In this document: positions 2,783-58,679 of the stretch, in pieces
Position numbering within the stretch: position 1 is the first letter of the stretch
Layout of the letters: every line of letters begins with the position of its first letter
IMG/VR virus record: IMGVR_UViG_3300021255_003438
Location: 13,508 to 77,507 of that record
Origin: a virus
Taxonomy: Duplodnaviria > Heunggongvirae > Uroviricota > Caudoviricetes
DNA length: 64,000 nucleotides
Strand: one strand, 5' to 3'
Program-made: the position numbers and the translations under genes
Notes under the pieces: generated by a model
The model's database searches: none
What the model saw: only the letters and a program-made list of their open reading frames with translations
Told to the model about the DNA's origin: nothing

Positions 2783-2985
2783 ATTCGTTTAATCTTATTT
2801 ATGTCTAGATTTACGATACTAGCGTTTAGTCTTTCCTCATTGCCTTTCACATTTGTAATCTTTCCATCCCTAATAATGACTATTGTGCACTGTCCATTCC
2901 CATGTAATGAATATAGATACCACTGTCTGTTCGGTTTCCAATCGTCAACATAGGTCACTACATCGCCAACTTGTAGGTTATCCAT
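2779..2985 (-). CDS. Hypothetical small protein
   Basis: 68 aa ORF with a 4-nt overlap to its neighbours. Confidence 0.35.
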   Translation of the reverse strand: MDNLQVGDVVTYVDDWKPNRQWYLYSLHGNGQCTIVIIRDGKITNVKGNEERLNASIVNLDINKIKRI

Positions 2986-4703: not shown

Positions 4704-5927
4704 TTAACCAATCTGTTTAATCAGATAATTGCACTTCTCAGTATTTCCCAAGGTTTTACCCTTATCATTGGAAAGCTTAACGCAATCATGCCATTCACGG
4801 CTCTCTGTAAGCCTCATTCCAATCAATTTGATTACAATGTTGCTATAAGGAAATTTCTCTTTTGTTTCCATGTTGGCAACATCAGCGCAAAGATGTGTTC
4901 CAATGCCATAGGAGTCCTTCATACGTCCGCCAAGCCACTTGTGCAACTCAACAGCCTTGTCAATGGTAAGGGCGTTAGAATATACAATAGACTTGGTTGA
5001 TGGGTCAATACCAAGAGAACGATATTTCTCAATCATCTTCTCAGTTTCCTCATGCTCGTCACCACTGTCAATACGGATACCATCGAACATCTTAGCCATC
5101 TTTTTAGAGAAATTGGAAAGGAACACCTTTGAGCCAAAACAGTCAGGAAGGAATATGCCCAAGTCGCCGTCATACACGTCAGACCATTTCTTCATAACTT
5201 GATAATTGCACTCAAACACGCCACTTACGCACTCTTCGAATGAGCAAATCTGGTGTGACATCGTTCCTATCACTCCAAGGTCAAATTCCTTTGCAAACCA
5301 CACATTAGATGTTCCAACGAATTTTCCATTGTAATGAGGGGTTTTCTTAATCTCTATATCAGCATTTTTTAATGCGTTAATTACATTACGCTGAACGTCA
5401 AATGAAAAGCGTCTACGTGTTCCCATGTCAGAAAGCAGCAGTCCATTTGTAAATGCTTTAGCTCCTTTTGCATACGCTTCTCTGTATACGTCATCCATGT
5501 CAACCTTTTCAATGTCGCCTTTAAGTATATGCATCAACTCTGAAATGGTAGATAGAATTGGCATTTCCCACATAATTGTGGAATACCACTTACCCTCAAT
5601 CATAATTGAGAGATAGCCATCAAGGTCTTGGAAAATGTGAACCTCACTAGGATTGAAACGGAATCCACGAAGGAAATTGTAGTACCACTCTGGAAGGAAA
5701 TAAATCTTTTTCTTCATAAACTCAATCTCTTCTTCAGTGATAATTACATTGGCCATTCCGTTAATCTGCTCTTGTAGCATCTGACCAAATCCTTTTGGAT
5801 AGCGAGTATAGTTTCTGTCAAAGAACGAATACCTTACCTCTGCACGAGGATAAGTGTGTAAAATGTAATACTGACAAGTGTACGTATAGAGGTCGTTATC
5901 AGTAAAATGAGTTACAATTTGTTTCAT
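4704..5927 (-). CDS. pncB: Nicotinate phosphoribosyltransferase
   Basis: 407 aa. Has 'LLSDMGTRRRFS' and the overall NAPRTase layout and length. Confidence 0.8.
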   Translation of the reverse strand: MKQIVTHFTDNDLYTYTCQYYILHTYPRAEVRYSFFDRNYTRYPKGFGQMLQEQINGMANVIITEEEIEFMKKKIYFLPEWYYNFLRGFRFNPSEVHIFQDLDGYLSIMIEGKWYSTIMWEMPILSTISELMHILKGDIEKVDMDDVYREAYAKGAKAFTNGLLLSDMGTRRRFSFDVQRNVINALKNADIEIKKTPHYNGKFVGTSNVWFAKEFDLGVIGTMSHQICSFEECVSGVFECNYQVMKKWSDVYDGDLGIFLPDCFGSKVFLSNFSKKMAKMFDGIRIDSGDEHEETEKMIEKYRSLGIDPSTKSIVYSNALTIDKAVELHKWLGGRMKDSYGIGTHLCADVANMETKEKFPYSNIVIKLIGMRLTESREWHDCVKLSNDKGKTLGNTEKCNYLIKQIG

Positions 5928-5962: not shown

Positions 5963-6406
5963 CTATTTTTGAATGCTAATCGAAATATCTGGTTTAACAA
6001 CGAGTTCAAATTGATTAAAGTCTTTACCGCCTTCTTTTTCTTTAATATATCTTTGTTTTAAATCAAAATTTTCGTGTTCCCCTTCATTTATAAACAATTC
6101 AACATCAATAATAGTTGCCAACTTGAATACTGGCATACTTCTAAATAATGTTGTATTCCAATAAATCATATCAATTTTGTTTTTAGCAGCCTTTTTAGTA
6201 TTAAACAATTTCGCATTGTTAATGTTTTGGCTGTAACATTTAAAATAATATGCACCGCCATCGTAATACAATGGCTCTTCTCCTTTCCACCCATCAGCAA
6301 TGAATTTTGGGTCTTCTTCAAGATGATACTTTTTTTTACAATTAAGTAACTCTTGTATACCATCTTTGGACGGAAATAATTTAATAATATATTTTTTCAT
6401 ATTCAA
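5963..6406 (-). CDS. Hypothetical protein
   Basis: 147 aa. Uses a TAG stop. Confidence 0.4.
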   Translation of the reverse strand: MNMKKYIIKLFPSKDGIQELLNCKKKYHLEEDPKFIADGWKGEEPLYYDGGAYYFKCYSQNINNAKLFNTKKAAKNKIDMIYWNTTLFRSMPVFKLATIIDVELFINEGEHENFDLKQRYIKEKEGGKDFNQFELVVKPDISISIQK

Positions 6407-7424: not shown

Positions 7425-8327
7425 CTACTTTGCCTCTACGTTGGTATAGTACCATTTCTCAAACTCGTTAAACTCTTCTTCAGAAAATTCTTTTTTCACA
7501 CGGTCAAGTTCGACATAATCACAATATTTAACTTTTACGATTACCCTATTGCCATTGCCACTGCAAAGAGGTACAACTGGACGTGCGACAATACCCTCTT
7601 CAATCATGGTTGGGTCAGCAGCCTTATCGTACTGAGTCGTAAAACCACTACGAACTTTGCGCTCAATTTCCTCAAGCGTCATTACACCTAGGAATGGAAC
7701 AGTCTCAAGCCCAAGACCCTTACAGAGAGAGTCACGAACATCCTTTGGAGTCCACCAGCCTTGCTGCTGGATGTCGAACACTACGAACCCATTTCCGTTC
7801 TGAATATAACGAGAGCCGCATTTCTGAATGCCAGTTCCGAAATACTCGCCATAGATGTAGATGGGGACTTCCTCAAGACGAACACCATACTGCCCTTCAC
7901 TTGTAGGAACTACAGTTAAAAGGCCAAGATGGTCTGACATATCCCAATACTCAACCTTGTTGGTGCTGCTATCCTTTACAGGGGCAAACCTAGCAGTCTC
8001 TTTTGGGAACATGGCCTTTAACTGAGGCTTGATACGCTCACCTATGGCTTGCAGCATTTCAAACTGACCATGCTGAGAATCAGCCTTATCCGTTTTACCA
8101 CCAACACGAATCTCACCAGTTGATGGGAAGTATGCAATCTTGGAGTTAGTTCCGTCAATCTTGGAATATGCCTCCCAAGGACAATTGAACAGATACTTAG
8201 CCTCTACATTGGAGAAGTTACCAATGATGATTTTGTTCTTGAACTTAAGCCAATCCTTGTTAGGACACTCCTTGCCATCGAAAATGTACCTTTTATATAG
8301 GGTATCAATCTTAGTATATGTATTCAT
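7425..8327 (-). CDS. ATP-dependent RNA ligase-like protein
   Basis: 300 aa. 'EAYSKIDGTNSKIAYF' carries the KxDG(T)N motif I of RNA/DNA ligases. TAG stop at 7425-7427. A host-type promoter lies just upstream at 8348-8379. Confidence 0.6.
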   Translation of the reverse strand: MNTYTKIDTLYKRYIFDGKECPNKDWLKFKNKIIIGNFSNVEAKYLFNCPWEAYSKIDGTNSKIAYFPSTGEIRVGGKTDKADSQHGQFEMLQAIGERIKPQLKAMFPKETARFAPVKDSSTNKVEYWDMSDHLGLLTVVPTSEGQYGVRLEEVPIYIYGEYFGTGIQKCGSRYIQNGNGFVVFDIQQQGWWTPKDVRDSLCKGLGLETVPFLGVMTLEEIERKVRSGFTTQYDKAADPTMIEEGIVARPVVPLCSGNGNRVIVKVKYCDYVELDRVKKEFSEEEFNEFEKWYYTNVEAK

Positions 8328-8922: not shown

Positions 8923-9143
8923 TTATAAAATAGGTTGCTAAATGGTTTTATAACACGTTTCCAATTAAACAATCTGTTAATGAAGCCTTCACTTTTCAAA
9001 TCATCAAACAATTCTTTTGCTTCGTTGAACTTTTGTTTGTATATGATTGTTTGATTTTTCTCTTCAATTAAAGAAGATTCCAAGGACTTAACTTTATCCT
9101 TAAGTCCTTGGTACTCTTCCATTGGAATTTCTATACGAGCCAT
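8919..9143 (-). CDS. Hypothetical small coiled-coil protein
   Basis: 74 aa ORF. Confidence 0.3.
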   Translation of the reverse strand: MARIEIPMEEYQGLKDKVKSLESSLIEEKNQTIIYKQKFNEAKELFDDLKSEGFINRLFNWKRVIKPFSNLFYK

Positions 9144-9742
9144 ACTCTTTCTGAATTTTCAATAAAATTAGTAAAGCTATTTGCTGTGTCTTCGGCTATA
9201 GCTGGGCTATATTCCTTCATCACTGCGAAATTAACATCAGGCATCGCTTTAACGCCATCTTTCACTGAGTCTGCAAGGCAATAGTCATATGCAAGGCCGC
9301 ATACATTAATGACTTGCGGTTTAATATAGTTGCAAAGGTTTACGATGAGGTCATGAGACTTTTCGTTCTTGAACACAGAATATTCCTCATGCTCTTCATT
9401 AAGACCCTTGGTGACTACAACATAATCAGCCTTAATTTCGTTGAGCGCGTCAAGAATCGGCTGATAGATAGCTGCTCCATGAGAGTGCTGAACACAGTGC
9501 ATTGGCCACATGCCGCCATTATCCTTAAACGAACAATGTGTGATAGGATGCCAATCAGCAGTTAGAATGATTTTTTCGTAATCCTTTCCGTGACCTCTGA
9601 TAAAGTCAGCCAAGTTATTCATTGCTCTCTCTGCACCATTTACAGGGAGTGTTCCACCCTCTAAAAAATCATATTGTGGGTCTACTACTAATAAAATTTT
9701 ACTTGTCATATTATTATTTGTTTTATTTTTCTTATAAATCAA
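9131..9742 (-). CDS. pncA: Nicotinamidase/pyrazinamidase (isochorismatase family)
   Basis: 'ILLVVDPQYDFLEGGTLPV', 'ADWHP', and a catalytic Cys context (NVCGLAYDYC). The start may be the internal Met at 9709. Confidence 0.75.
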   Translation of the reverse strand: MIYKKNKTNNNMTSKILLVVDPQYDFLEGGTLPVNGAERAMNNLADFIRGHGKDYEKIILTADWHPITHCSFKDNGGMWPMHCVQHSHGAAIYQPILDALNEIKADYVVVTKGLNEEHEEYSVFKNEKSHDLIVNLCNYIKPQVINVCGLAYDYCLADSVKDGVKAMPDVNFAVMKEYSPAIAEDTANSFTNFIENSERVWLV

Positions 9743-9983: not shown

Positions 9984-11381
9984 TCAAGTTGTTAGGCTCT
10001 TAATTTTATTCTCTACGACCTCAAAGCATTCATCTTTCGTAATATTTGGATTTTCGAAATAGGCATCTTTGACTGCCTCAAGCAGAACTCCAATTATCGG
10101 CCCACCTTTTAATTTAAATTCTGCCATAATGTCTTTTCCATTTATAGGCAGTTTGATGTTGGCCATCTTATCAATGTCCTCAAGCTCTTCTATTCTGTTA
10201 AGAAGGTCGTACACTTGTCGTTTTTTCTTGTCGTATGTGGAATGTAGGTTATTGGCGTTCATTAGGTCAACCACTGTTCCGATGTCGTTTCCGCATAGAT
10301 TCATGAACTTTCTGATTTTCTTATCTGGAGGTACTACGCCATCCGCATAGATTTTGAAAATCCTATGATATTCTATAGCAGTTTGTACGCTTTTAATGAT
10401 ATGGTTTGGAAACTTCATCATCTTCAAGTCTGCTGCTGCAATCTCTCCGCTAAAGTTATCAGGATTAACTGTTTTGTCCTTATCCGTTATAACCTTTCCA
10501 ACGTCATGGAATAATGCTGCCAATCTGCTTTCAAGGTATGGCTGCGTTTCGTCCAACACATTCATGGTATGGTCAAATGTTGTTACCATTGGGTTTTTAG
10601 ACTCATACGCAAAGTTAGTGTCGTATATATCAGGCATTACCTTGTTCAGCACGCCACAGTAATACATTTTCCTTATGCCAACGCTAGGCTTGCTGCATAA
10701 CAGAATTTTTGAAATTTCATCACTGATTCGTTCTTGTGATACGATTTCCAACCTATTTACGTTTTTAATCATACCAAGCCATGTGTCCTTATCAATACCC
10801 CATCCTAGACGAGTTGAGAAACGAATGACACGCATAATCCTCAATGGGTCATCATTGAACGTTATATCTGGGTCTGTTGGTGTTCGTATGATTTTAGCAC
10901 AAAGGTCAGAATATCCAGTGCCGTTAAAATCGCACAGTTTATCTTGGCTTATGTTGTAATATAAAGAATTGATTGTTAAATCTCTTCTTTTTGCGTCTTC
11001 TTCTATAGTTCCAAATACAGTCTCTGGATTCCTATTTTCTTTATGATACTGCTCCTTACGAGTCTGCACACATTCTATTTCAATGTCCTTAAACTCTTCG
11101 TGTTTATATAATTGGAATTTAGCAGTACCATAGGTCTCAAATATTACAGGATTTGTTGACGTAACAAAACATTGATGTTTCATCGTCATGTATGTGGAGA
11201 ATAGAAGTCCTCCATTTGGTATGTCAATTACCAAATCCAAATCCTTAATTGGAAGCCCTAAGATGCTGTCACGGACAGAGCCACCGACAACGTATACATG
11301 ATTGTCGAAGTGGGTGAACTTAATCGTTTCCCTTATTAGATTTAGAAGCTTTTTTATTTTCTCGTCCTTGAATATTTCCAT
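9984..11381 (-). CDS. cca: tRNA nucleotidyltransferase (CCA-adding enzyme) with HD domain
   Basis: 465 aa. 'VVGGSVRDSILGLPIKDLDLV' is the PolyA-polymerase head motif. 'LFHDVGK' is the HD motif. Confidence 0.8.
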   Translation of the reverse strand: MEIFKDEKIKKLLNLIRETIKFTHFDNHVYVVGGSVRDSILGLPIKDLDLVIDIPNGGLLFSTYMTMKHQCFVTSTNPVIFETYGTAKFQLYKHEEFKDIEIECVQTRKEQYHKENRNPETVFGTIEEDAKRRDLTINSLYYNISQDKLCDFNGTGYSDLCAKIIRTPTDPDITFNDDPLRIMRVIRFSTRLGWGIDKDTWLGMIKNVNRLEIVSQERISDEISKILLCSKPSVGIRKMYYCGVLNKVMPDIYDTNFAYESKNPMVTTFDHTMNVLDETQPYLESRLAALFHDVGKVITDKDKTVNPDNFSGEIAAADLKMMKFPNHIIKSVQTAIEYHRIFKIYADGVVPPDKKIRKFMNLCGNDIGTVVDLMNANNLHSTYDKKKRQVYDLLNRIEELEDIDKMANIKLPINGKDIMAEFKLKGGPIIGVLLEAVKDAYFENPNITKDECFEVVENKIKSLTT

Positions 11382-15290: not shown

Positions 15291-17333
15291 TTACATTGCT
15301 CTAGTAAGCTCGTATTCCAATGAGTCCTCCGTCTCAACCTCAACGTTGTCATTGAAGATGTCTTTGTTAGGTTTGATATACTCCTTAAGGTCTATCTTAC
15401 AAGACTTTGCGAGTTTCTTGTCCTCTTCCCTAACCTTAAGGTCAGGTCTCTGACCAATAATCTTCAATGCCTCAAGGTTGTTATTCACGATGCACTGTCC
15501 AAGTGCAGCGCAACCAAAATCATTAACGTTGTTGACGTTGACGTTCTTCTTTGCTGCAAGAACCTTCACAACCCACACTTGGCTTGGGAATTCACATGCC
15601 ACGTTAATAGCCGTATCGTGGTTAAGGTCAAGCGTATTGAAGTCGAATGTCTTGCTAGAAAGAACTGACTTAATCATGGTAGTAAGCAGTTTGTTGTCCT
15701 CCTTAGAAGTGACAATTTCATCACTGCCGTGCAGATAAAGAAGTGACTCAAGAAGTGTCTCGCCAAAGCCGTCTTCAATCTTAGAGTTGAACTTAGGATG
15801 GTTCACAATAGCATCGAAAAGCTTATACATCTTGTTGTTGATGGCAGAGAACACAGGAACTCTTGTGTTAAATTCATAGTTAACGTCAATGTTGTTACCC
15901 TCTTTATTAATAAGCTCAATTGCACCAAGCTCATCGTTCTCGTCAATCAGCTTGTGTAGCAAGATGGATGGGTCAATAGCCTCACGGTTCAGATATGCGT
16001 CACTTGAAATGCCAATCTTTGACAGATAGCCTTGCTTGGTCAAGTCTGCGCCGAATGTTTCAGTCGCACGAACCAAAGATAGTGCACCATATTGGTCTTT
16101 GCGGTACTGCATTGCAATCATGGACATGTCATCGTTGTAGTTGAGGTTGAAGTCCATAAAGAGATACAACTTATTATTGGTATCCACAGAGAAGTTTCCA
16201 CTCTTGATGAAACTGTGACCCACAAGCTTGTCAAATCCATTCTTGTTAAGGATGTTGATAATCAAACGGCCATCACCCTCGTATGCAATTGCATAGTTTG
16301 ATGGTTCTTTCTTTACCATTTCAAGAATGGATGCAATAGTCCAAGTGAAACCAATGTTCCTAGGCAGACGCATGAACTTGCTGGCCTTAACGCCAATCTT
16401 TGCAAGAAGCTTGTGGATGTTAAGAGTTTCACTACCTTGCTTGAAATCTTCCATCATGTCCTTGTTGTCACAAGTCTGAGCAATGATAATTCCACTACCA
16501 CCCTCAACTGTGAATCCAACGTGTGCGAAACAGTCAGTTTCCTTACGGCTGAAATCAAACAAGAAGTATTGGTCACGCTTGCCATCGTAACGTGTCACAT
16601 AATCTGAAAAGAAATGTGCCTCACGAGTAATGCACCACTGTGTACGGCCGCTGCCACAAAGCTTGTGGCTAGAATCGAATGACGGAACGCGAATAATAAC
16701 AACAGACCCTTCGTTGTACACGATTTCACAATCGCTAGCATTATGCTCAAGGTAACAAAGCATATCTTCCTTATCCCATTCATATGTCTCTTCAAGACAG
16801 CTATTGATTGCTGCTAGCAAAGAGTCAGCAGTTTTCAGTGCAGAGCAAGTGCTATAGAACTTGTTCTTGCGACCCATAGGCTTTTTATTGAAGAGTTTGA
16901 ATACATTGTACCATTTCTTAATCGTGGCATCGCTGTAAGCTTCGAGAGCCGTATATTCCTTATCAAGGAGTGCCTTGGTAAGAATCTTCCTTTGGTCAGT
17001 GTTAAAGTGCGAAATGATGTTCTTGATGAATGCCAATCTGTCAAGTCCTTCCATTTCCTTTTTCAACTGAGCAATACCTGATTTATTAGAGTAGGACACA
17101 ATGTTCTTTTTCGCAAGCTTACTGATGAGGTTCTGATTTTCAACAATCCAATCGTGAATCTGCTGTAAGTCCTCAAAAGTTAATGACTGCGAGAAAATCA
17201 TCTTAACAGCCCAATTTTGATAGTTGGTCTGTCCATCGAACATTTCTACTACGCTAATAAACAATTTGTTAGTCTCTGGATTGATTTGATACTTATCAAT
17301 CAAGGGCTGCATCTGTTTTTTGTTGTAAGTCAT
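15291..17333 (-). CDS. Large ankyrin-repeat protein with an N-terminal domain paralogous to 17655..20174
   Basis: 680 aa. The C-terminus has ANK-like repeats (G.TLLESLL..., HDTAINVACEF...NDFGCAALGQC). 'TQWCITREAHFFSDYV...QYFLFDFS...HVGFT' aligns with 'TNWCISKNKSYWNNYI...QYMIFDFS...IVGFT' in the next gene. Confidence 0.5.
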   Translation of the reverse strand: MTYNKKQMQPLIDKYQINPETNKLFISVVEMFDGQTNYQNWAVKMIFSQSLTFEDLQQIHDWIVENQNLISKLAKKNIVSYSNKSGIAQLKKEMEGLDRLAFIKNIISHFNTDQRKILTKALLDKEYTALEAYSDATIKKWYNVFKLFNKKPMGRKNKFYSTCSALKTADSLLAAINSCLEETYEWDKEDMLCYLEHNASDCEIVYNEGSVVIIRVPSFDSSHKLCGSGRTQWCITREAHFFSDYVTRYDGKRDQYFLFDFSRKETDCFAHVGFTVEGGSGIIIAQTCDNKDMMEDFKQGSETLNIHKLLAKIGVKASKFMRLPRNIGFTWTIASILEMVKKEPSNYAIAYEGDGRLIINILNKNGFDKLVGHSFIKSGNFSVDTNNKLYLFMDFNLNYNDDMSMIAMQYRKDQYGALSLVRATETFGADLTKQGYLSKIGISSDAYLNREAIDPSILLHKLIDENDELGAIELINKEGNNIDVNYEFNTRVPVFSAINNKMYKLFDAIVNHPKFNSKIEDGFGETLLESLLYLHGSDEIVTSKEDNKLLTTMIKSVLSSKTFDFNTLDLNHDTAINVACEFPSQVWVVKVLAAKKNVNVNNVNDFGCAALGQCIVNNNLEALKIIGQRPDLKVREEDKKLAKSCKIDLKEYIKPNKDIFNDNVEVETEDSLEYELTRAM

Positions 17334-27529: not shown

Positions 27530-27781
27530 TCAATTAAATATGCTCATAGGGTCTTCATTAACCTTAACAAGCTCAACAGACAATTGGAATCGTGGATTTT
27601 CATCCTTTTCCTTATACTCTTCTGGATGCTCTTCCATCTGTTTCACTTGCTCTTCAAGCCTTTTAATAGCCTCCTTGAGCATTTCAACTTTGTCAGTTCC
27701 AGGATAGTTTAAACCAAACCTAAACTCCTTCCCTTCCATAAGCAACATTTTTGCTTGCAACATTTTTGTAAACTTATCCAT
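27530..27781 (-). CDS. Hypothetical coiled-coil protein. Start uncertain because the 5' end overlaps a tRNA-like element.
   Basis: The ORF track gives 27530..27838. The start is moved to the internal Met (MDKFTKML). Confidence 0.3.
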   Translation of the reverse strand: MDKFTKMLQAKMLLMEGKEFRFGLNYPGTDKVEMLKEAIKRLEEQVKQMEEHPEEYKEKDENPRFQLSVELVKVNEDPMSIFN

Positions 27782-27797
27782 AACCTTAAATAATTTG

Positions 27798-27859
27798 TCG
27801 GTGGTGTTGGACTCGAACCAACCATGCTCTAGAATCATCGCGCCAAAAATTTACCACCG
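27798..27859 (-). ncRNA. Truncated tRNA-like element (no D-arm) with a TTCTAGA loop (anticodon-like CTA)
   Basis: Perfect acceptor CGGTGGT/ACCACCG and T-arm GTTGG-TTCGAGT-CCAAC. Only 62 nt. Weak ATG(A)/(G)CAT stem around a TTCTAGA loop. Confidence 0.3.
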
Positions 27860-30081: not shown

Positions 30082-30113
30082 CAAAGATATATCTTTTTTT
30101 CGTAATTTCCAAA
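30082..30113 (-). promoter_or_regulatory. Bacteroidetes-type promoter (second of a tandem pair)
   Basis: caaagata at 30082-30089 and ccaaa at 30109-30113, spacer 19 nt. Confidence 0.5.
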
Positions 30114-31110: not shown

Positions 31111-31297
31111 ATATAAAAATTAAATTGATTTCTAAAAAAAAAAAATAAAAATTAGCTGCTAGGGGCAGGCTACGTTCTAACGATTATCCCCTCTTAACTG
31201 AGTACGCCCATAGGTATTATTACGTAATTATCCCCTATTGCTTTCTCTGCCCTGTGGTAGACCTTTATCAAATTACGTCCGCAACAGCTAATTATTG

Positions 31298-31368
31298 TAC
31301 CCCCTCAAGGAATCGAACCTCGTTGTTACAGCACTACGCCAAATGTCCTACCATTAGACGAAAGGGGT
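31298..31368 (-). ncRNA. tRNA-like element with a non-canonical anticodon region
   Basis: Acceptor ACCCCTT/AGGGGGT. D-arm GTC-TAATGGTAG-GAC. T-arm CGAGG-TTCGATT-CCTTG. No clean anticodon stem found. Confidence 0.35.
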
Positions 31369-31454: not shown

Positions 31455-31540
31455 CCACATGACTCGAAATCCGACAACCCAGTCAGTTGCTTGAGAGCAA
31501 CCACTCTACAACCTTATGCGTCATACCATTACGCAATATA
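31455..31540 (-). ncRNA. tRNA-like hairpin element. Perfect GTTGC/GCAAC stem with loop TCTCAAG (anticodon-like TCA).
   Basis: Hairpin at 31485-31502 and a T-loop-like GACTCGAAATCC at 31461-31472. No acceptor pairing found. Confidence 0.25.
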
Positions 31541-33216: not shown

Positions 33217-33293
33217 TGGGTCTAGAGGGGTTTGAACCCACGTGTAACCAACTACGGTTTCAACTGCTTATGAGGCAGAGCCGATATAGACCC
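33217..33293 (-). ncRNA. Non-canonical tRNA-like gene: no recognizable D-arm, CTCATAA (CAT) anticodon loop, extra hairpin in the variable region
   Basis: Acceptor GGGTCTA/TAGACCC is perfect. Hairpin TCTGC-CTCATAA-GCAGT. Extra AACC-GTAGTT-GGTT hairpin. T-arm GTGGG-TTCAAAC-CCCTC. Confidence 0.4.
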
Positions 33294-34048: not shown

Positions 34049-34456
34049 CTAGTAATTCATACGTGAGGGTATAACACCTCTTACGCCACCTCTAGGGTTT
34101 TCAACGTCACCCTCATATCTAGGAATTATGTGTATGTGACAATGATGAATGGTTTGCCCAGCAACCTCTCCACAGTTAATACCAATATTATAACCTTGGG
34201 GATGGTATCTTTCGTCTAATATTTTTTTGGCATTCTCTATCGCATAATGCAATGACTCCTTTTGAGAATCTGATAAATCAAAATATGTTTCAACGTGTTC
34301 CTTTGGTATAATAAGTGTGTGACCTTTAGATACTGGATATTCATCTAATACGGCTTTCCATATAGTTCTGTCGAACAACACATTCTCTTCCTTTTGATTT
34401 TCACAAAAAACACACTTATCCATTGTTCTGCTGCCCATTCTCTCTAATGTGTTCAA
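34049..34456 (-). CDS. HIT-family (histidine triad) nucleotide hydrolase/transferase
   Basis: 135 aa. 'IHHCHIHIIPR' is the HxHxHxx motif. Confidence 0.75.
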   Translation of the reverse strand: MNTLERMGSRTMDKCVFCENQKEENVLFDRTIWKAVLDEYPVSKGHTLIIPKEHVETYFDLSDSQKESLHYAIENAKKILDERYHPQGYNIGINCGEVAGQTIHHCHIHIIPRYEGDVENPRGGVRGVIPSRMNY

Positions 34457-34934
34457 CTGCGCTCTTAAGTGCTACCGAAATGGCTTTTTCAATATTATTG
34501 CTTCTAGAAGAATCAGCTTCAATCTTTACATACTTGAAAGTGACTCTTCCATTTATTTTCTTGCACACACAAATCCATATTGTACCATTTTCACTGTCCT
34601 CATGGATAAATGCGTCACCAATAACACTAATACATACATCTACGTTAAACATATAAGACGCACATAATGCAGTTTTCATTGCCACTTGAGAACTGTATAA
34701 GCCATTCGCCTTTATAACATCTTCACCTATTCCCATCAACGTTTTAAGGGCATCGTCATTGAAATAGTTAAGAGTGCCCTTATATATTGTTGGAACGGCA
34801 CATACGCTTCCTATGGTTGCTCCAAGCAGTCCACAAGTACAATTTTCAACCGTTGCTATCGTTAGACCTCTGTTGAGGATTTCTAGGGCTAATTCTTTCA
34901 ATTCTTCACTCATCGAAATAAACGTTTTTGTCAA
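34416..34934 (-). CDS. pncC: CinA C-terminal domain protein (PncC-like NMN deamidase)
   Basis: 172 aa. 'TIATVENCTCGLLGATIGSV...YSSQVAMKTA...DVCISVIGDA...GTIWI' matches the CinA_C/PncC consensus (ESCTGGLLA...SNE.K...GAVS...MA.GA...ISVTGIAGP...GTV). Confidence 0.6.
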   Translation of the reverse strand: MTKTFISMSEELKELALEILNRGLTIATVENCTCGLLGATIGSVCAVPTIYKGTLNYFNDDALKTLMGIGEDVIKANGLYSSQVAMKTALCASYMFNVDVCISVIGDAFIHEDSENGTIWICVCKKINGRVTFKYVKIEADSSRSNNIEKAISVALKSAVEHIRENGQQNNG

Positions 34935-35286: not shown

Positions 35287-35398
35287 TCCATATATTTTTT
35301 TTTTATTAAACTTTTTGCAAATATATAAAAAAAAATTGGAAGATACAAATATATCTCCCAACTTTAATTTTGTTTAACAATTTGCCTATATGGATGTG

Positions 35399-35472
35399 TG
35401 AGCGTAGTGGGATTCGAACCCACGAACAACGGTTTTAGAGACCGCCCCAATAGACCACTCTAGCATACGCCC
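35399..35472 (-). tRNA. Candidate suppressor tRNA (anticodon CTA, would read UAG)
   Basis: Acceptor GGGCGTA/TACGCTC. T-arm GTGGG-TTCGAAT-CCCAC. Anticodon stem (G)CGGT/ACCG(T) with loop CTCTAAA (U33, CUA, A37). The D-arm is irregular. Own promoter at 35481-35511. Confidence 0.45.
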
Positions 35473-35480
35473 TTATGTTG

Positions 35481-35511
35481 CAAATATATGAAAAATAATT
35501 TGCATAGCAAA
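35481..35511 (-). promoter_or_regulatory. Bacteroidetes-type promoter driving the CUA tRNA
   Basis: caaatata at 35481-35488 and caaa at 35508-35511, spacer 19 nt. Confidence 0.5.
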
Positions 35512-35576
35512 ATAATTTAAAGAATTTTAATAAAAAAGCACCATAAGCAAGAGCCTATAGTGCTTTTTATATTGTA

Positions 35577-35936
35577 TTAGTCTTCGGTAACAATATCTAA
35601 ATTCTTAAATAGCTCTTCATGACCGTGTACCGCGATTGCAGTAATTCTATCGTCCAAGTCAGGTTCTCTGAACTCAGAATAATCAACGCCTAGAAGGTCT
35701 AACTTCCTTCTCCACTTTATTATGTCAGCTCTTAAGTAAATCAGATATTCGTTATCCCATAGGTGGGTATTTTTATGCTCTAGCATCCATTGCGCTACGG
35801 CATGACCCCCTTGGACACAACCATATACTGGTTTCAACGTCTTGTCAATCAAGACATAAAGTTTATTCTTCTCCATCAGTTGATGCATATTTGTTGTAAG
35901 TGTTAATAACACGGTTTTTAAATGCTGGAACCACAT
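35577..35936 (-). CDS. Hypothetical protein
   Basis: 119 aa ORF. Confidence 0.4.
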   Translation of the reverse strand: MWFQHLKTVLLTLTTNMHQLMEKNKLYVLIDKTLKPVYGCVQGGHAVAQWMLEHKNTHLWDNEYLIYLRADIIKWRRKLDLLGVDYSEFREPDLDDRITAIAVHGHEELFKNLDIVTED

Positions 35937-37686: not shown

Positions 37687-37811
37687 CAGGGACTGATGGA
37701 CTCGAACCACCATTTTTCATTAACAGTTAAAGGCGTAATCTGTTCCGCAGTCGAGACTACGTTAATTCCTTAAATCGTAACAAACCACTCTTACCCTTGA
37801 GCTAAATCCCT
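37687..37811 (-). ncRNA. Long tRNA-like gene (~125 nt) with acceptor + D-arm + T-arm and ~50 extra nt
   Basis: Acceptor AGGGATT/AGTCCCT. D-arm GCTC-AAGGGTAA-GAGT. T-arm GGTGG-TTCGAGT-CCATC. Extra internal hairpins, including AACAG...CTGTT. Confidence 0.35.
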
Positions 37812-39392: not shown

Positions 39393-39424
39393 CAAAGATA
39401 TATAAAATTTTTGAAACTTCCAAA
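39393..39424 (-). promoter_or_regulatory. Bacteroidetes-type promoter
   Basis: caaagata at 39393-39400 and ccaaa at 39420-39424, spacer 19 nt. Confidence 0.55.
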
Positions 39425-39690: not shown

Positions 39691-40391
39691 GTTAAGTGGA
39701 GCTAGAGTGAAATAAATCTCATTAAACTCCGTACTTTTCCACATTTGTAAATATTTATATTAAAATCAATATTACTATGTCAAAAAAATATAACTTTAAT
39801 CGTAAACTAGGTACAGTTAAATGTGATAATTGCGGCAAAGAATTCCAAAAGCCCCAATCAGAAATTAACCGTAACGCTAAACTCAATAGAAATAACTACT
39901 GCTGTAGAGAATGTTCTGCTGAAGGGGTTAGAAAAACTAGATTGAATTTACCTTATAAACCAGCATCTAAAAAAATGTTAGAACATTTAAAAGATATTTG
40001 TGGAAATCATCGTGATGATTACACTCCATTCAGATATTCTTTAAGATGCGCTAAAAGACGTTTTAAAGACGTTAATGTAACTTTGGAAGACTTAAAAGAA
40101 ATATGGGAAAAACAAAATGGTGTTTGCCCATACACTGGTTTTAAACTAATTCTTCCTGAAAACTCTAATGTGAATAAAATCGATTTTTTTCATAGAGCAT
40201 CTTTAGATAGAATAGATTCTTCACTTGGTTACATTAAAGGTAACATTCAATTTATTTCTACACCTATTAACTTGATGAAACAAACACAAAGTGATGCAAG
40301 CGTTAAACAATTCCTAAAAGAAATTTCAAGTTATACATCAAAACTTTTATAAGTGTCTGATTTTCAAGTAGTTAAGTGGAGCTAGAGTGAA
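39691..40391 (+). mobile_element. Free-standing HNH homing endonuclease insertion flanked by a 21-bp direct repeat derived from a tRNA 3' end
   Basis: Identical gttaagtggagctagagtgaa at 39691-39711 and 40371-40391. The right copy continues into an intact T-arm (GAGTG-TTCGATT-CACTC). The only sizeable plus-strand gene in the window. Confidence 0.55.
39777..40352 (+). CDS. HNH homing endonuclease
   Basis: 191 aa. 'FFHRASLDRIDSSLGYIKGNIQFIS...N' matches the HNH_3 motif. N-terminal Cys pairs (CDNCGK...CCREC). Confidence 0.65.
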   Translation: MSKKYNFNRKLGTVKCDNCGKEFQKPQSEINRNAKLNRNNYCCRECSAEGVRKTRLNLPYKPASKKMLEHLKDICGNHRDDYTPFRYSLRCAKRRFKDVNVTLEDLKEIWEKQNGVCPYTGFKLILPENSNVNKIDFFHRASLDRIDSSLGYIKGNIQFISTPINLMKQTQSDASVKQFLKEISSYTSKLL

Positions 40392-40762
40392 TCGAACACT
40401 CGTCCATACTACCATCCCATAAGAGATTATACAAGCTTTAAAATTGGAAAGTTGACATTGCTGTCCTCACCGCCACCTCATTTTGCGAAAACGAGGAAAA
40501 CTAGGGGGATGACTAGAGTCATCAGTCCACCATTCGGTTTTAAGAAACCGACAAAAAGTTGCTAGGATGTTCTGTTCCTAAGAGCCTAGCCTCTCGGCTT
40601 ACATTACGCAGCTATTGCGTACTCGTAAGCAGGAGTATCAATATACTCGCCGTTTATTTTTTTCTTGCTATTTCTAGTGTATGCCCACTGCTTGTCTCTT
40701 ACCAAATGCATAGCTGTCTATACCATTGTAGCCCCATTGTGTCAAAGAACTCTTTCTTGTTG

Positions 40763-40839
40763 TCGAGACGGCAGGAGTTGAACCTGCGTGTGACCTACTA
40801 CACTTTCTACTCCTTATCAGGGAGAGGTGATACGTCTCG
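40763..40839 (-). ncRNA. Non-canonical tRNA-like gene (no clear D-arm, CTGATAA/GAT Ile-like loop, extra variable hairpin)
   Basis: Acceptor CGAGACG/CGTCTCG is perfect. CTCC-CTGATAA-GGAG hairpin. GTGT-AGTAGGTC-ACAC hairpin. T-arm GCAGG-TTCAACT-CCTGC. Confidence 0.4.
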
Positions 40840-41678: not shown

Positions 41679-41710
41679 CAAAGATATATAAAATATTTGA
41701 AACTTCCAAA
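41679..41710 (-). promoter_or_regulatory. Bacteroidetes-type promoter
   Basis: caaagata at 41679-41686 and ccaaa at 41706-41710, spacer 19 nt. Confidence 0.55.
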
Positions 41711-43218: not shown

Positions 43219-43241
43219 AACAATAAAAATTAAATTAACAG

Positions 43242-43330
43242 CTCGCAGGGTGCGATTCGAACACACGGTAGGATTTTAAACCTACGGCAGTTTTGGAGAC
43301 TGCTGGGTTAAACCACTCCCCCACCTGCGA
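43242..43330 (-). tRNA. tRNA with a Trp anticodon (CCA) but a type-II-like long variable arm
   Basis: Acceptor TCGCAGG/CCTGCGA is perfect. Anticodon stem GCAGT/ACTGC with loop CTCCAAA. Variable hairpin GTAGG-TTTAAAAT-CCTAC. T-arm GTGTG-TTCGAAT-CGCAC. Confidence 0.5.
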
Positions 43331-44361: not shown

Positions 44362-44445
44362 GGCATTACCTTTAATGTCCTCCGTGTTGGAGTCGAACCA
44401 ACGTTGCGTTTCCGCACAGATTAAGAGTCTGTTGCATGACCTCTC
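44362..44445 (-). ncRNA. tRNA-like element with a Lys-type anticodon arm (ACAGA-CTCTTAA-TCTGT, CTT). Acceptor pairing not found.
   Basis: Perfect T-arm GTTGG-TTCGACT-CCAAC and anticodon hairpin. No complementary 5' acceptor strand. Confidence 0.3.
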
Positions 44446-44460
44446 TGCCAGGTGCATCAT

Positions 44461-45370: not shown

Positions 45371-45442
45371 TGCCCCCAGAGAATTTTGCAATCTCGACCC
45401 CATGTTTAAGAGACACGTGCTCTACTTCTGAGCTATGGAAGC
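45371..45442 (-). tRNA. tRNA-Lys (anticodon CTT)
   Basis: Acceptor GCTTCCA/TGGGGGC (two G-U pairs). D-arm GCTC-AGAAGTA-GAGC. Anticodon stem CGTGT/ACATG with loop CTCTTAA. T-loop-like TTGCAAAAT. Confidence 0.5.
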
Positions 45443-45535: not shown

Positions 45536-45607
45536 TGCGCCCAGAGGATTCTGCCACCTCGACTCCTAGTTTAAAAGACTAGTGCTCTACTTCTGAGCTA
45601 TGAGCGC
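45536..45607 (-). tRNA. tRNA-Lys (anticodon TTT)
   Basis: Acceptor GCGCTCA/TGGGCGC. D-arm GCTC-AGAAGTA-GAGC. Anticodon stem CTAGT/ACTAG with loop CTTTTAA. Confidence 0.55.
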
Positions 45608-51392: not shown

Positions 51393-51429
51393 TTATATGG
51401 TTATTTAAAGTTTCACAATGCAAAGATAT

Positions 51430-51461
51430 ATATTTTTTTTATAAATTCCAAATTTTTAGAA
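51430..51461 (-). promoter_or_regulatory. Bacteroidetes-type promoter
   Basis: caaagata at 51430-51437 and ccaaa at 51457-51461, spacer 19 nt. Confidence 0.55.
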
Positions 51462-52040: not shown

Positions 52041-52459
52041 ATAAAAAGGAAACGTAGGTTTTCGAGCTTGCTTATTCTGCTATTACTATGAGGGTGGTAT
52101 TTCAAGATTGACTCCACACATCCTAGCGAATATGCTTCAACGTCTCCCACCTATCCTACACTCATATGCCATTGCTACTGTTATTCACAAGAGTAACACG
52201 TTATGCAGCCCTAGCCTTATCTTTTGGAATTGTAACGAGTTAAGATTTCATATGCTGTACGTTTCCGATATATTGTGTCAATTGCGACAAAAGAAAAAAG
52301 GAACGACCAATTTTATGTCTTGGCTCGACATTCGCCCCGAAGAGCATAGGTAAGTGCCTCGCAATGATGATTTAACGCTTCTCTTACCTTCGTCTAGTCT
52401 GAATTAAAAATGTGTTCTTATAAATTTATTTTAATCAAACTGCTGTACGTTCCTACTTG

Positions 52460-58242: not shown

Positions 58243-58313
58243 TCGGTAGGTTGAGACTCGAACTCAAATCTCTTAGTAAAAGCCAAGGCTCTAACCCATT
58301 GAGCTACCCATCG
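58243..58313 (-). ncRNA. tRNA-like gene (canonical D- and T-arms, unresolved anticodon stem)
   Basis: D-arm GCTC-AATGGGTTA-GAGC. T-arm TTGAG-TTCGAGT-CTCAA. Acceptor pairs 6/7. Confidence 0.4.
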
Positions 58314-58499: not shown

Positions 58500-58593
58500 A
58501 GTTAAAATGCCAACACGTTAGAATTCTTGCATTATTACCTCTATAGTCTTATGCTGCTCTTAGAGAGGTTGCCTAAAGACTTGTGTTAGCTTG

Positions 58594-58679
58594 TCGGAGG
58601 AGAGGGATTCGAACCCCCTGCGTATCTTACGTGCTAGATTTACAGTCTAGTGCCCATCCACCATCTGAGCAGCCCTCCG
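58594..58679 (-). tRNA. tRNA-Tyr (anticodon GTA), type II
   Basis: Acceptor CGGAGGG/TCCTCCG. D-arm GCTC-AGATGGTGGAT-GGGC. Anticodon stem CTAGA/TCTAG with loop CTGTAAA. Variable-arm hairpin CGTA-AGA-TACG. T-loop TTCGAAT. Confidence 0.65.

What the first reader, a model, noticed from the sequence alone, without database searches (positions are those of the whole stretch)
35399..35472. Candidate amber-suppressor tRNA (anticodon CUA) with its own promoter. Related CTA-loop and TCA-loop tRNA-like elements at 27798-27859 and 31455-31540.
The hand-folded anticodon loop is CU-CUA-AA (U33, A37) on a 4-5 bp stem, with good acceptor and T-arms. A D-armless tRNA-like element carries a TTCTAGA loop. A perfect 5-bp hairpin carries a TCTCAAG loop (UCA, an opal-reading anticodon). 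Phages of Bacteroidota, including crAss-like phages, are known to reassign TAG or TGA in late genes and to carry suppressor tRNAs. However, TAG is used as a true stop for at least two genes in this window (7425..8327 and 5963..6406). Any recoding would therefore be restricted to genes outside the window, or the tRNA may have another role.
Basis: partly seen in the sequence, partly recalled or inferred. Interest (0 to 1): 0.75.

Follow-up and report, generated by a model that had tools for sequence, protein, structure and literature searches.

The report
Amber-suppressor tRNA in standard-code huge phage
A large gut/rumen phage of Bacteroidota carries a real, evolutionarily conserved tRNA that reads the UAG stop codon, yet every part of the phage and its relatives that could be examined, including tail and baseplate genes, still uses UAG as an ordinary stop.

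Summary
The main observation is correct. Window 35399-35472 (minus strand) is a canonical 74-nt tRNA with anticodon CUA (ARAGORN; Rfam 57 bits). It has its own Bacteroidota-type promoter and an intrinsic terminator. Syntenic orthologues occur in three related huge phages. Across the four copies, seven base pairs carry compensatory changes and the CUCUAAA loop is invariant, so the gene is under selection and is not a pseudogene.

Its body derives from a type II tRNA-Ser (supD-like), not from the Gln type reported for TAG-recoded phages. It has A73 and G2·U71, and the window lineage has lost the long variable arm. The amino acid it carries is unresolved.

The recoding interpretation is not supported. 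About 112 kb of this phage (contig at least 201 kb) shows no TAG-interrupted genes. That stretch includes a Peptidase_S74 tail-fibre gene. The same holds for about 667 kb of sequence fetched from the clade (with overlaps), including gp25/gp6 baseplate genes. TAG ends about 9% of genes. A positive control (Gln-type suppressor phages) shows clear recoding with the same metric. About 89 kb of the contig remains unseen.

The two "related" elements (27798-27859 and 31455-31540) are not tRNAs by covariance-model or folding tests.

Verdict: a new member of a known kind (phage suppressor tRNA), in an unusual standard-code context.

The parts
35399..35472 (-). tRNA gene with anticodon CUA (amber suppressor). 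74 nt, class-I-like with a 5-nt variable loop, A73, G2.U71, no encoded CCA.
   Evidence: ARAGORN. Rfam RF00005 57.1 bits. Four-sequence orthologue alignment A1: 98.8% of cells paired, 7 pairs with changes on both sides, loop CUCUAAA invariant. The same gene is present in three assemblies.
35481..35511 (-). Bacteroidota-type promoter (TTTG-N19-TATATTTG) that ends 8 nt upstream of the tRNA 5' end.
   Evidence: Motif TTTGN{17,21}TANNTTTG: 31 hits in the window (28 on the minus strand) against 3.65 expected, 0 of 100 shuffles reach 31. The motif is conserved in the close relative (L008 about 7950-7982). That this is the Bacteroidetes sigma-A consensus is from my own knowledge (Bayley et al. 2000).
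35322..35365 (-). Terminator-like hairpin plus T-run downstream of the tRNA. It overlaps the -33 box of the next promoter (35349-35318).
   Evidence: Terminator scan, stem 35365-35332 with 15 pairs (3 G-C), followed by TTTTTATATA. Next promoter hit at 35318-35349(-).
35520..35560 (-). Hairpin plus T-run directly after the stop of the upstream ORF (35577..35936). It would insulate the tRNA unit from read-in transcription.
   Evidence: Read directly from the sequence (AAAAAGCACTATAGGCTCTTGCTTATGGTGCTTTTTT on the minus strand). The simple scan did not call it, so this is inference.
9984..11381 (-). Phage CCA-adding tRNA nucleotidyltransferase. It is the likely maturation partner, because none of the phage tRNAs, including the CUA tRNA, encodes CCA.
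   Evidence: Pfam PolyA_pol 8e-25 with the RNA-binding and tRNA_NucTran2_2 domains; PHROG 2244 1.5e-61; NCBIfam CCA models. The functional link to this tRNA is inferred.
40374..40735 (-). Phage tmRNA (tag GEYIDTPAYEYAIAA), 5 kb upstream in the same island. It co-occurs with the CUA tRNA in both relatives whose region was read. This is context and a possible functional partner.
   Evidence: ARAGORN and Rfam RF00023 57.9 bits. L008 3565-3925 and L044 3945-4302. Any functional link is speculative.
27798..27859 (-). tRNA-like minihelix (7-bp acceptor-like stem, canonical T arm, weak 3-bp hairpin with loop UUCUAGA). Not a validated tRNA; status unresolved.
   Evidence: Best covariance-model hit is tRNA-Sec at 16.8 bits, E 2.3. 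Fold z-score -1.09. The close relative shows one G-C to A-U compensatory change and one U-A to U.G change in the acceptor-like stem.
31455..31540 (-). Hairpin with loop UCUCAAG. Not a tRNA and not part of the suppressor system.
   Evidence: No tRNA hit at E<=10. Fold z-score -0.29. C at position 33. The relative has a loop substitution and gives no covariation information.

Best explanation
SHOWN. The locus is a functional, independently transcribed tRNA gene whose anticodon CUA pairs with the UAG stop codon. It is a phage-encoded amber suppressor. It is transcribed from a Bacteroidota-type promoter almost at +1, ends at an intrinsic terminator and does not encode its 3' CCA.

It sits in a 33-kb 'translation island' with about 35 tRNAs and a tmRNA. 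A CCA-adding enzyme and two RNA ligases lie further along in the window. TyrRS and IF3 lie just outside it.

The gene is orthologous and syntenic in at least three related huge phages. Selection has kept the cloverleaf and the exact CUCUAAA loop while the stems changed by compensatory substitutions. The family descends from a type II tRNA-Ser body (supD-like) that acquired A73 and G2.U71. In this lineage the long variable arm was deleted.

Everything that could be read of this phage and its clade is written in the standard code, with UAG ending about 9% of genes. This includes tail-fibre and baseplate genes.

INFERRED. CCA is added by the phage's own CCA-adding enzyme. The tRNA is charged by a host synthetase that does not read the anticodon strictly. 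Candidates are Ser or Leu for the long-arm relatives; for this copy the candidates are Leu, Lys or Gln, and this is unresolved. During infection it competes with RF1 and causes partial UAG read-through.

The tRNA therefore most likely works as a leaky suppressor in a standard-code phage. This is either the 'suppressor acquired before or without recoding' state described for relatives of recoded phages, or a device aimed at a few still unseen UAG sites or at host termination. It is not the decoder of a wholesale TAG-recoded late-gene set.
For: Genuine tRNA with CUA.

Own promoter and terminator.

Orthologues in synteny: the close relative (L008/L009, neighbouring proteins 68-97% identical, most above 90%); the 412-kb phage (L044) and L125, where it follows homologues of ORFs 35863 and 35577 at 69-79% identity.

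Covariation: 98.8% of cells paired, 7 pairs changed on both sides, 0 of 500 shuffles reach the observed score, slid controls at most 60% paired.

Ser-type ancestry: the nearest GenBank phage tRNAs are tRNA-Ser. The D-arm 20-mer occurs in more than 120 bacterial genomes, and 111 of 113 tRNAs called there are tRNA-Ser. Nearest-neighbour isotype is Ser for the long-arm copies.

Standard code: stops in database gene calls of this phage are TAA 80, TGA 29, TAG 11. TAG-terminated genes continue only 2-20 codons to the next stop. ORF coverage does not rise specifically when TAG is read as sense in any locus of the phage or clade, whereas positive-control loci rise from 0.44-0.55 to 0.83-0.96. The phage's own 805-aa Peptidase_S74 tail-fibre gene is intact. 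The gp25-like and gp6-like baseplate genes and the 2100-2235-aa ORFs are intact in four relatives. All of the top 120 of 2091 gp6 homologues are 665-798 aa. Same-frame ORF pairs bridged by a TAG are not enriched (24, against 38 for TGA and 81 for TAA, in 667 kb). No release-factor domain was found among the 78 window ORFs or in the flank gene calls.

Precedent: standard-code relatives of recoded phages that carry suppressor tRNAs (bioRxiv 10.1101/2021.08.26.457843), and phage G, which carries a Sup-UUA tRNA (PMC12484599).
Against: Only about 112 kb of the 201-kb contig could be read. Record positions 1-72,756 and about 184,600-201,037 of this phage itself are unseen. The capsid, portal, terminase and lysis genes of the clade were never located, and a small set of recoded late or lysis genes could be hidden there.

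The relatives whose baseplate genes were read are not shown to carry the CUA tRNA, because their contigs do not reach that region.

Strong purifying selection on a suppressor is easier to explain if some essential phage gene needs it.

In published surveys Sup-CUA tRNAs are strongly associated with TAG recoding: 40-52% of code-15 phages carry one.

Aminoacylation, expression and suppression were not tested and cannot be tested here.
Confidence: 0.6

Rival explanations
1. Code-switch model. Late, structural or lysis genes in the unsampled part of the genome contain in-frame TAG. The suppressor tRNA, made from the standard-code island, switches the infected cell to a TAG-sense code late in infection, as in Lak, crAss-like, Jade and Sapphire phages.
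For: Sup-CUA tRNAs are strongly enriched in TAG-recoded phages. In large recoded phages the suppressor sits in standard-code regions and the recoded modules are scattered. The tRNA is under clear selection. The phage is distantly related to the TAG-recoded Lak phages of Prevotella (24-33% protein identity). About 89 kb of the contig is unseen.
Against: No TAG-interrupted gene was found in about 112 kb of this phage's own sequence, in the loci sampled from the 129-kb contig of the close relative that carries the tRNA, or in about 667 kb of clade loci. The phage's own tail-fibre gene and the clade's baseplate and giant fibre genes are intact, and one gp6-like gene even ends in TAG. These are exactly the gene classes reported as most heavily recoded. 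TAG is a normal stop at about 9%. No RF2 was found. The tRNA is not Gln-type, whereas only TAG-to-Gln has been reported.
Confidence: 0.2
2. The suppressor targets host or competitor translation rather than phage genes. Read-through of UAG-terminated host mRNAs helps host shut-off, possibly coupled to the phage tmRNA 5 kb away, which would tag ribosomes that run to mRNA ends. Alternatively it buffers amber mutations, or interferes with or cooperates with co-infecting recoded phages.
For: The clade is written in the standard code, yet the suppressor is conserved. The suppressor and tmRNA co-occur in all three phages where the region was read. The island is rich in translation-takeover genes, including IF3, TyrRS, a CCA-adding enzyme and RNA ligases.
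Against: This is purely inferential. There is no direct link between the tmRNA and the suppressor. tmRNAs are common in huge phages that have no suppressor (PMC7162821). No experimental precedent is known to me.
Confidence: 0.12
3. The gene is a decaying or non-translational tRNA-like element, for example a pseudogene, a decoy for an anticodon nuclease, or a mis-called sense tRNA whose C34 is modified to read another codon.
For: The window contains several aberrant tRNA-like genes (note 5). The variable arm was lost in this lineage. Isotype assignment of this copy is ambiguous.
Against: The cloverleaf is fully canonical, with a high covariance-model score. Stems changed by compensatory substitutions while the loop stayed invariant in four lineages. 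It has its own promoter and terminator. It is present unchanged in three assemblies.
Confidence: 0.06
4. It is a pyrrolysine tRNA, as ARAGORN's label says.
For: ARAGORN prints 'tRNA-Pyl' for any CUA anticodon.
Against: It lacks the tRNA-Pyl hallmarks known to me: a 6-bp anticodon stem, a 3-nt variable loop, a small D loop and a non-canonical T loop. Here the anticodon stem is 5 bp, the D loop is a normal G18G19 loop and the T loop is UUCGAAU. No PylS, PylB, PylC or PylD domains appear in the window or flanks. The body is tRNA-Ser-derived.
Confidence: 0.01

Closest known systems
Phage-encoded Sup-CUA tRNAs of TAG-recoded (code 15) gut phages: crAss-like, Lak, and the TAG-recoded 'gemstone' clades such as Sapphire, Garnet and Amethyst (Borges et al., bioRxiv 10.1101/2021.08.26.457843; Cook et al., PMC11210395)
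   Same: A phage-borne tRNA with anticodon CUA, encoded in a standard-code region of a large phage that infects a standard-code Bacteroidota host. Huge-phage context with many tRNAs and translation genes. The anticodon arm GUCUCUAAAAC is shared with more than 119 IMG/VR phage contigs.
   Different: No in-frame TAG was found in any sampled gene, including tail-fibre and baseplate genes, and TAG is a normal stop. The tRNA body is tRNA-Ser-derived with A73, not the Gln-like type (U1, G73) seen in the clearly recoded control loci. No RF2 or matching synthetase module was found.
Standard-code relatives of recoded phages that have acquired a suppressor tRNA (Agate clade example, Borges et al. Fig. 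3A), and phage G with a Sup-UUA tRNA (PMC12484599)
   Same: A suppressor tRNA present in a phage whose genes are written in the standard code.
   Different: Those cases concern TGA or TAA suppressors and are single observations. Here the CUA tRNA is conserved with covariation across lineages whose flanking proteins are only about 70-79% identical. That argues for a maintained function rather than a transient intermediate.
E. coli supD (serU) amber suppressor, a tRNA-Ser(CGA) with anticodon mutated to CUA (my own knowledge)
   Same: The relatives' copies (L125, L044, L009) have a tRNA-Ser D arm, a tRNA-Ser anticodon stem and loop context (CUNNNAA, U31-A39) and a long variable arm. They differ from tRNA-Ser(CGA) in the loop by G35 to U.
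   Different: The discriminator is A73 (Ser has G73). The acceptor stem is not Ser-like and has a conserved G2.U71. The window copy has lost the long variable arm, which is the main SerRS determinant, so Ser identity is doubtful for this copy.
tRNA-Pyl
   Same: Anticodon CUA only.
   Different: The architecture is that of a canonical elongator tRNA and no pyl genes are present.

Membership tests
Canonical bacterial-type elongator tRNA (Rfam RF00005) | Covariance-model score above the gathering threshold over the full model | tested here: met
   57.1 bits against 29, model positions 1-71 of 71.
Canonical bacterial-type elongator tRNA (Rfam RF00005) | Cloverleaf with 7-bp acceptor stem, D arm with G18G19, 5-bp anticodon stem, 7-nt loop with U33 and purine 37, and a T-psi-C loop | tested here: met
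   ARAGORN drawing. Pairs supported by covariation in four orthologues.
Amber suppressor tRNA (Sup-CUA) | Anticodon 5'-CUA-3' at positions 34-36 of a functional tRNA | tested here: met
   The loop is invariant in orthologues.
Amber suppressor tRNA (Sup-CUA) | Aminoacylated, and inserts an amino acid at UAG in vivo | not testable with these tools
   Needs a reporter assay, acid-gel northern blot or proteomics.
Phage stop-codon recoding system (code 15, TAG to Gln) | In-frame TAG codons in phage genes, especially structural and lysis genes; coding density rises when TAG is read as sense | tested here: not met
   Not met in about 112 kb of this phage's own contig, in the close relative, or in clade baseplate and fibre genes. 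The positive control works. About 89 kb of the contig, and the capsid, terminase and lysis genes, were not seen, so the test is incomplete.
Phage stop-codon recoding system (code 15, TAG to Gln) | TAG avoided as a terminator | tested here: not met
   TAG ends 11 of 120 database gene calls, including an RNA ligase and a HIT protein.
Phage stop-codon recoding system (code 15, TAG to Gln) | Suppressor of tRNA-Gln type (U1-A72, G73) | tested here: not met
   G1-C72 and A73, with a Ser-derived body.
Phage stop-codon recoding system (code 15, TAG to Gln) | Accessory code-change genes (RF2, a cognate aaRS) next to the suppressor; this feature is optional | tested here: not met
   No RF domain in the window or flanks. 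The only aaRS is a TyrRS about 34 kb away.
Type II tRNA-Ser | Long variable arm | tested here: not met
   The window copy has a 5-nt variable loop. The orthologues have 16-22 nt arms.
Type II tRNA-Ser | Ser-type D arm and anticodon stem | tested here: met
   Met clearly for the orthologue L125, whose 20-mer is found in tRNA-Ser in 111 of 113 cases. Met only partly for the window copy.
Type II tRNA-Ser | Discriminator G73 | tested here: not met
   A73 in all four copies. The bacterial tRNA-Ser examples printed all have G73.
tRNA-Pyl | Pyl-specific architecture and pylS/pylBCD genes | tested here: not met

The most novel reading that the evidence does not exclude
A whole clade of Bacteroidota huge phages (contigs 170-425 kb) that writes its genes in the standard code nevertheless keeps, under purifying selection, a tRNA-Ser-derived amber suppressor with a remodelled acceptor end (A73, G2.U71). 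In this lineage the variable arm has also been deleted, which would imply a change of amino-acid identity. The tRNA would then serve something other than decoding recoded phage genes. One possibility is deliberate UAG read-through on host messages, working together with the neighbouring phage tmRNA. Another is decoding of UAG as a non-Gln amino acid at a handful of regulatory sites.
Probability: 0.3. Interest if true: 0.65.

Novelty: new member of a known kind. Interest (0 to 1): 0.42.

Why it matters
Phage suppressor tRNAs are currently read almost automatically as markers of stop-codon recoding, and TAG reassignment in phages has only been reported as TAG to Gln.

This case shows a conserved, clearly selected Sup-CUA tRNA of tRNA-Ser ancestry in a phage clade whose structural genes, as far as they could be seen, are standard-coded. 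If the unseen part of the genome is also standard-coded, two things follow. First, suppressor tRNAs cannot be used on their own to infer genetic code when annotating phages. Second, there is an unexplained selective role for UAG read-through in infected Bacteroidota cells.

If instead a few hidden genes carry TAG, this would be the first candidate for a non-Gln TAG reassignment in phages.

Either way the immediate finding is a moderate one: a well-supported new example of a known class.

Tried and rejected
(1) Megablast and tblastn against GenBank phages found no close relative. Only weak hits at 24-33% identity appeared, to Lak phages, phage G and huge-phage records LR745206 and LR7565xx. Whole-genome reading through annotated records was therefore impossible.

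(2) An exact 40-mer of the tRNA has no match in IMG/VR. The 5' 24-mer matches only the close relative.

(3) Walking along the source contig was limited by caps. Chimeric queries to the search for homologous proteins worked once. They failed once with a Cys/Thr-rich BACON protein, which wasted a search. The third search returned the gp6 family but not the NODE_38 orthologue.

(4) Ids from the listing of cluster members turned out to be accepted by the look-up of encoding contigs. This allowed two further steps on NODE_38. These steps reached auxiliary genes, not the baseplate.

(5) The region upstream of 'gene A' is hypervariable between relatives, so homology walking there was unreliable.

(6) I looked for programmed read-through extensions after TAG stops. 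Only 2-20 codons follow, and no conserved downstream ORF was found.

(7) The tRNA-Pyl label was rejected.

(8) The TyrRS and tRNA-Tyr lead was considered because the tRNA has A73, G1-C72, U35 and a long arm in relatives, like supF. It was set aside because the body matches tRNA-Ser far better than tRNA-Tyr. It is not excluded.

(9) Isotype assignment of the window copy by nearest neighbours is ambiguous: Ser 6, Lys 4, Trp 3, Cys 3, Leu 3 and Tyr 2 among the 25 nearest.

(10) The LSU-fragment hit was not found in L007. It may lie outside that locus.
Full report
**Observation**

ARAGORN finds 32 tRNA and tmRNA genes in the window, all on the minus strand. One of them is a 75-nt gene at 35398-35472 with anticodon CUA. 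Rfam's tRNA model matches 35399-35472 over its full length at 57.1 bits (gathering score 29). That score is typical of the other tRNAs in the window.

The drawn structure is fully canonical:
- acceptor stem GGGCGUA/UACGCUC, with G2.U71
- a 4-bp D stem, and a D loop containing GG
- anticodon stem GCGGU/ACCGU
- loop C-U-CUA-A-A
- a 5-nt variable loop
- T arm GUGGG-UUCGAAU-CCCAC
- discriminator A73
- no encoded CCA

The identical gene is present in three separate assemblies: NODE_38 of ERZ12302814, SHIW14-1 scaffold_473 and NODE_14649 of ERZ12302818. It is therefore not an assembly artefact.

**Transcription unit**

The Bacteroidota promoter consensus is TTTG-N17-21-TAnnTTTG; that this is the consensus is my own knowledge (Bayley et al. 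2000). The motif occurs 31 times in the window, 28 of them on the coding strand, against 3.65 expected. One copy at 35511-35481 ends 8 nt before the tRNA 5' end.

A hairpin of 15 pairs (3 of them G-C) with a T-run follows the tRNA at 35365-35332. A hairpin with a T-run after the upstream ORF precedes the promoter; this was read from the sequence. The motif also argues for a Bacteroidota host, as do BACON and BspA-LRR domains in neighbouring proteins.

In the close relative, a 104-aa ORF is inserted between the same promoter and the tRNA.

**Genomic context**

The window is the reverse complement of positions about 110,617-174,616 of ENA contig NODE_38_length_201037. It is an auxiliary and translation island:
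- about 35 tRNAs, a tmRNA and an 80-nt 23S-like fragment
- a CCA-adding enzyme, two RNA ligases, DHFR and a radical-SAM protein
- NAD-salvage enzymes: NAPRTase, NADAR, CinA and NUDIX

TyrRS, NAD synthase, SSB, sigma-70, IF3, DnaK, DnaJ and a PARG lie in the flanks. No release factor and no structural gene lies in the window.

GenBank phages contain no close relative, only weak similarity to Lak megaphages and other huge phages. IMG/VR, ENA and Logan hold a large clade of relatives on contigs of 170-425 kb, mostly from rumen and gut samples.

**Conservation of the tRNA**

The closest relative is IMGVR_UViG_3300021399_003927. Its neighbouring proteins are 68-97% identical to those of the window, most above 90%. 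It carries a CUA tRNA with identical acceptor, D and T arms. Its anticodon stem is AUAGU/ACUAU instead of GCGGU/ACCGU, and it has a 16-nt variable arm.

A pattern search found two further orthologues. L044 comes from a 412,753-bp contig, and L125 is a second. Both lie directly after homologues of window ORFs 35863 and 35577, which are 69-79% identical.

On the four-sequence alignment, 98.8% of cells form standard pairs. Seven pairs changed on both sides, no shuffle reaches the observed covariation, and slid controls drop to 37-60% paired. The loop CUCUAAA, A73 and G2.U71 are invariant. This is the signature of a tRNA maintained by selection for its structure and for this anticodon. It excludes a pseudogene.

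**Ancestry and amino-acid identity**

- The nearest annotated phage tRNAs to the long-arm orthologue are genuine type II tRNA-Ser genes, for example S-WAM2 tRNA-Ser-TGA. Their core identity to the orthologue is 79-81%.
- The orthologue's D-arm 20-mer occurs in more than 120 bacterial genomes, and 111 of 113 tRNAs called at those sites are tRNA-Ser.
- Nearest-neighbour analysis gives Ser for L125, L009 and L044. The pool is Ser-enriched, so the result is strongest for L009, whose D arm differs from the search pattern.

The family is therefore a supD-like derivative of tRNA-Ser. Its acceptor end is not Ser-like: A73 instead of G73.

The window copy has lost the long variable arm, which is the main SerRS determinant (established knowledge). 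Its nearest-neighbour isotype is ambiguous. By its acceptor end it is not Gln-like: it lacks U1-A72 and G73. The clearly recoded IMG/VR phages, by contrast, carry U1/G73 suppressors. Which amino acid this copy carries cannot be decided here.

**Is TAG recoded?**

The window itself is not recoded. Solid ORFs end in TAG and continue only 2-20 codons to the next stop.

- On the phage's own contig I read record 72,757 to about 184,600 (L290, L284, L010, L001, the window and L004). The database gene calls there are dense. Stops are TAA 80, TGA 29 and TAG 11.
- Among those genes are an 805-aa protein with a Peptidase_S74 domain and large neighbouring ORFs of 477, 586 and 569 aa. Peptidase_S74 is the auto-chaperone domain of tail fibres and tail spikes.
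- The close relative adds an uninterrupted BACON-domain ORF of at least 1699 aa, and a convergent module of 270-880-aa ORFs.
- In a further relative (Ga0247610_10000061, 171 kb) I reached a gp25-like and a gp6-like baseplate wedge gene. They are followed by ORFs of 2235, 943, 995 and 890 aa. All are uninterrupted, and the gp6-like gene ends in TAG.
- The gp6-like protein has 2091 homologues. All of the 120 best are 665-798 aa, and four more loci show the same intact module.

A coverage metric (the fraction of DNA in stop-free stretches of at least 100 codons) does not rise specifically when TAG is read as sense in any locus of the clade. The same metric jumps from 0.44-0.55 to 0.83-0.96 in control IMG/VR loci that carry Gln-type suppressors.

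Same-frame ORF pairs bridged by a single TAG are not enriched: 24, against 38 for TGA and 81 for TAA, in 667 kb of fetched clade sequence, some of it overlapping.

**Limits**

Record positions 1-72,756 and the last 16 kb or so of NODE_38 could not be fetched. The last 16 kb are partly covered by the close relative. Capsid, portal, terminase and lysis genes were never located. The relatives in which baseplate genes were read do not extend to the tRNA region, so it is not shown that those particular genomes carry the suppressor.

**Interpretation**

The published picture is as follows (bioRxiv 10.1101/2021.08.26.457843; PMC11210395):
- Sup-CUA tRNAs are found in 40-52% of TAG-recoded phages.
- Recoding concentrates in structural and lysis genes.
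- Only TAG to Gln has been seen.
- Standard-code relatives occasionally carry suppressor tRNAs, possibly as a step preceding recoding.

Phage G, which uses the standard code, carries a Sup-UUA tRNA (PMC12484599).

Against that background the most likely reading (about 0.6) is a functional amber suppressor in a standard-code huge phage. It would produce partial UAG read-through, and its selected targets are still unknown. The code-switch model retains about 0.2 because of the unseen DNA. A host-directed role, possibly coupled to the conserved neighbouring tmRNA, is an attractive but untested variant.

**The two side elements**

*27798-27859.* This element has a 7-bp acceptor-like stem and a canonical T arm. 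Its 'anticodon' stem is only 3 bp. It gets no significant covariance-model hit; the best is the tRNA-Sec model at 16.8 bits, E 2.3. Its fold is not unusually stable (z = -1.09). In the close relative, one acceptor pair changed G-C to A-U and another U-A to U.G. This hints at a structured tRNA-derived minihelix, but not at a working suppressor tRNA.

*31455-31540.* This element has no tRNA signal at all (z = -0.29), and it has C at position 33.

**Verdict**

The core observation is right. The recoding interpretation is not supported by any sequence that could be reached. The object is a new member of the known class of phage suppressor tRNAs. Its unusual features are tRNA-Ser ancestry, A73, loss of the variable arm, and a standard-code context.

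Noticed in passing
window 52087-52166 (-): A free-standing 80-nt match to the bacterial 23S rRNA model (RF02541 positions 2131-2210, 63 bits, E 2.7e-16). From my own knowledge of 23S numbering this is roughly the L1-stalk region. It lies between tRNA-Arg(ACG) and tRNA-Arg(UCU) and could be an L1-binding mimic. It was not detected in L007 of the close relative, but it may lie outside that locus.
   Followed up: partly
window 40374-40735 (-); L008 3565-3925; L044 3945-4302: A phage-encoded tmRNA with tag GEYIDTPAYEYAIAA (GENVDSPAYEYAVAA in the close relative). It is conserved in both relatives whose region was read, always about 4.5-5 kb upstream of the CUA tRNA.
   Followed up: partly
window 33217-33293, 40763-40839, 37687-37811, 44386-44450, 45371-45442, 45536-45607, 58243-58313, 31297-31368 (all -): A set of aberrant tRNA-like genes. 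Two have CAU or GAU loops and no normal D arm, and only Rfam finds them. One is 125 nt long with a large insertion. Two are Lys-like (CUU and UUU) with odd T loops. One has an irregular anticodon loop (ARAGORN '???'). One is a 72-nt 'tRNA-Leu(UAG)' with G33.
   Followed up: no
window 43241-43330 (-) and 58593-58679 (-); L001 3406-4677: The phage tRNA-Trp(CCA) is 90 nt long, with a long variable arm and the same D loop (GAGUGGUUUAA) as the Ser-type suppressor orthologue. The phage tRNA-Tyr(GUA) has C1-G72, which is the archaeal/eukaryal-type identity pair, yet the phage encodes a bacterial-type TyrRS (TIGR00234, 373 bits). This may be a phage-private Tyr pair.
   Followed up: partly
IMG/VR loci L068, L075, L102, L071, L045, L087 and others: Many unrelated phage Sup-CUA tRNAs with Gln-like bodies (U1, G73) carry 20-nt insertions in the variable region (89-93 nt in total). 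Long variable arms on non-type-II suppressor tRNAs seem to recur in phages.
   Followed up: no
window, 28 sites on the minus strand (e.g. 30082-30113, 39393-39424, 41679-41710, 51421-51452): The promoter motif falls into two sub-classes: '...CATATATTTG', and a longer conserved 'TTTGGAAnTTnnAAA...ATATATCTTTG'. These may be different temporal classes or different sigma factors. The phage encodes a sigma-70 homologue (L010 10001-10900).
   Followed up: no
window 27798-27859 (-); L008 about 16955-17015: A tRNA-like minihelix (acceptor-like stem plus T arm) with a compensatory G-C to A-U change in the relative. It overlaps the 5' end of ORF 27530-27838. It could be a tRNA-derived structured RNA or a relic of a tRNA 3' half.
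   Followed up: partly
window 2978-3481, 4704-5927, 9131-9709, 34416-34913; L001 6028-6936; L004 19997-20687: A near-complete NAD+ salvage and ADP-ribose toolkit: NADAR, NAPRTase, a nicotinamidase-like isochorismatase, CinA, a NUDIX protein, NAD synthase and PARG. This suggests counter-defence against NAD-depleting or ADP-ribosylating host systems.
   Followed up: no
about 26.4 kb to the left of window position 1 (NODE_38 record 201,037; the end of SHIW14-1 scaffold_473; near the start of the contig of IMGVR_UViG_3300021399_003927): Two separate assemblies end at the same base, and the relative's contig starts close by. This is either a physical genome terminus or a repeat. Several relatives' contigs are about 400-425 kb, roughly twice the 190-240 kb of others, so they may be concatemer artefacts.
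   Followed up: no
L013 99-5198; L283 3625-7695; L014, L018, L020 and L022 upstream of 'gene A': There is a hypervariable block of giant Cys/Thr-rich surface proteins (BACON domain, 1200 to more than 1700 aa) upstream of a conserved 283-aa gene. This phage has different genes there: 569 aa, 805 aa with Peptidase_S74, and 586 aa. It is probably a host-range cassette, and it breaks many assemblies.
   Followed up: partly
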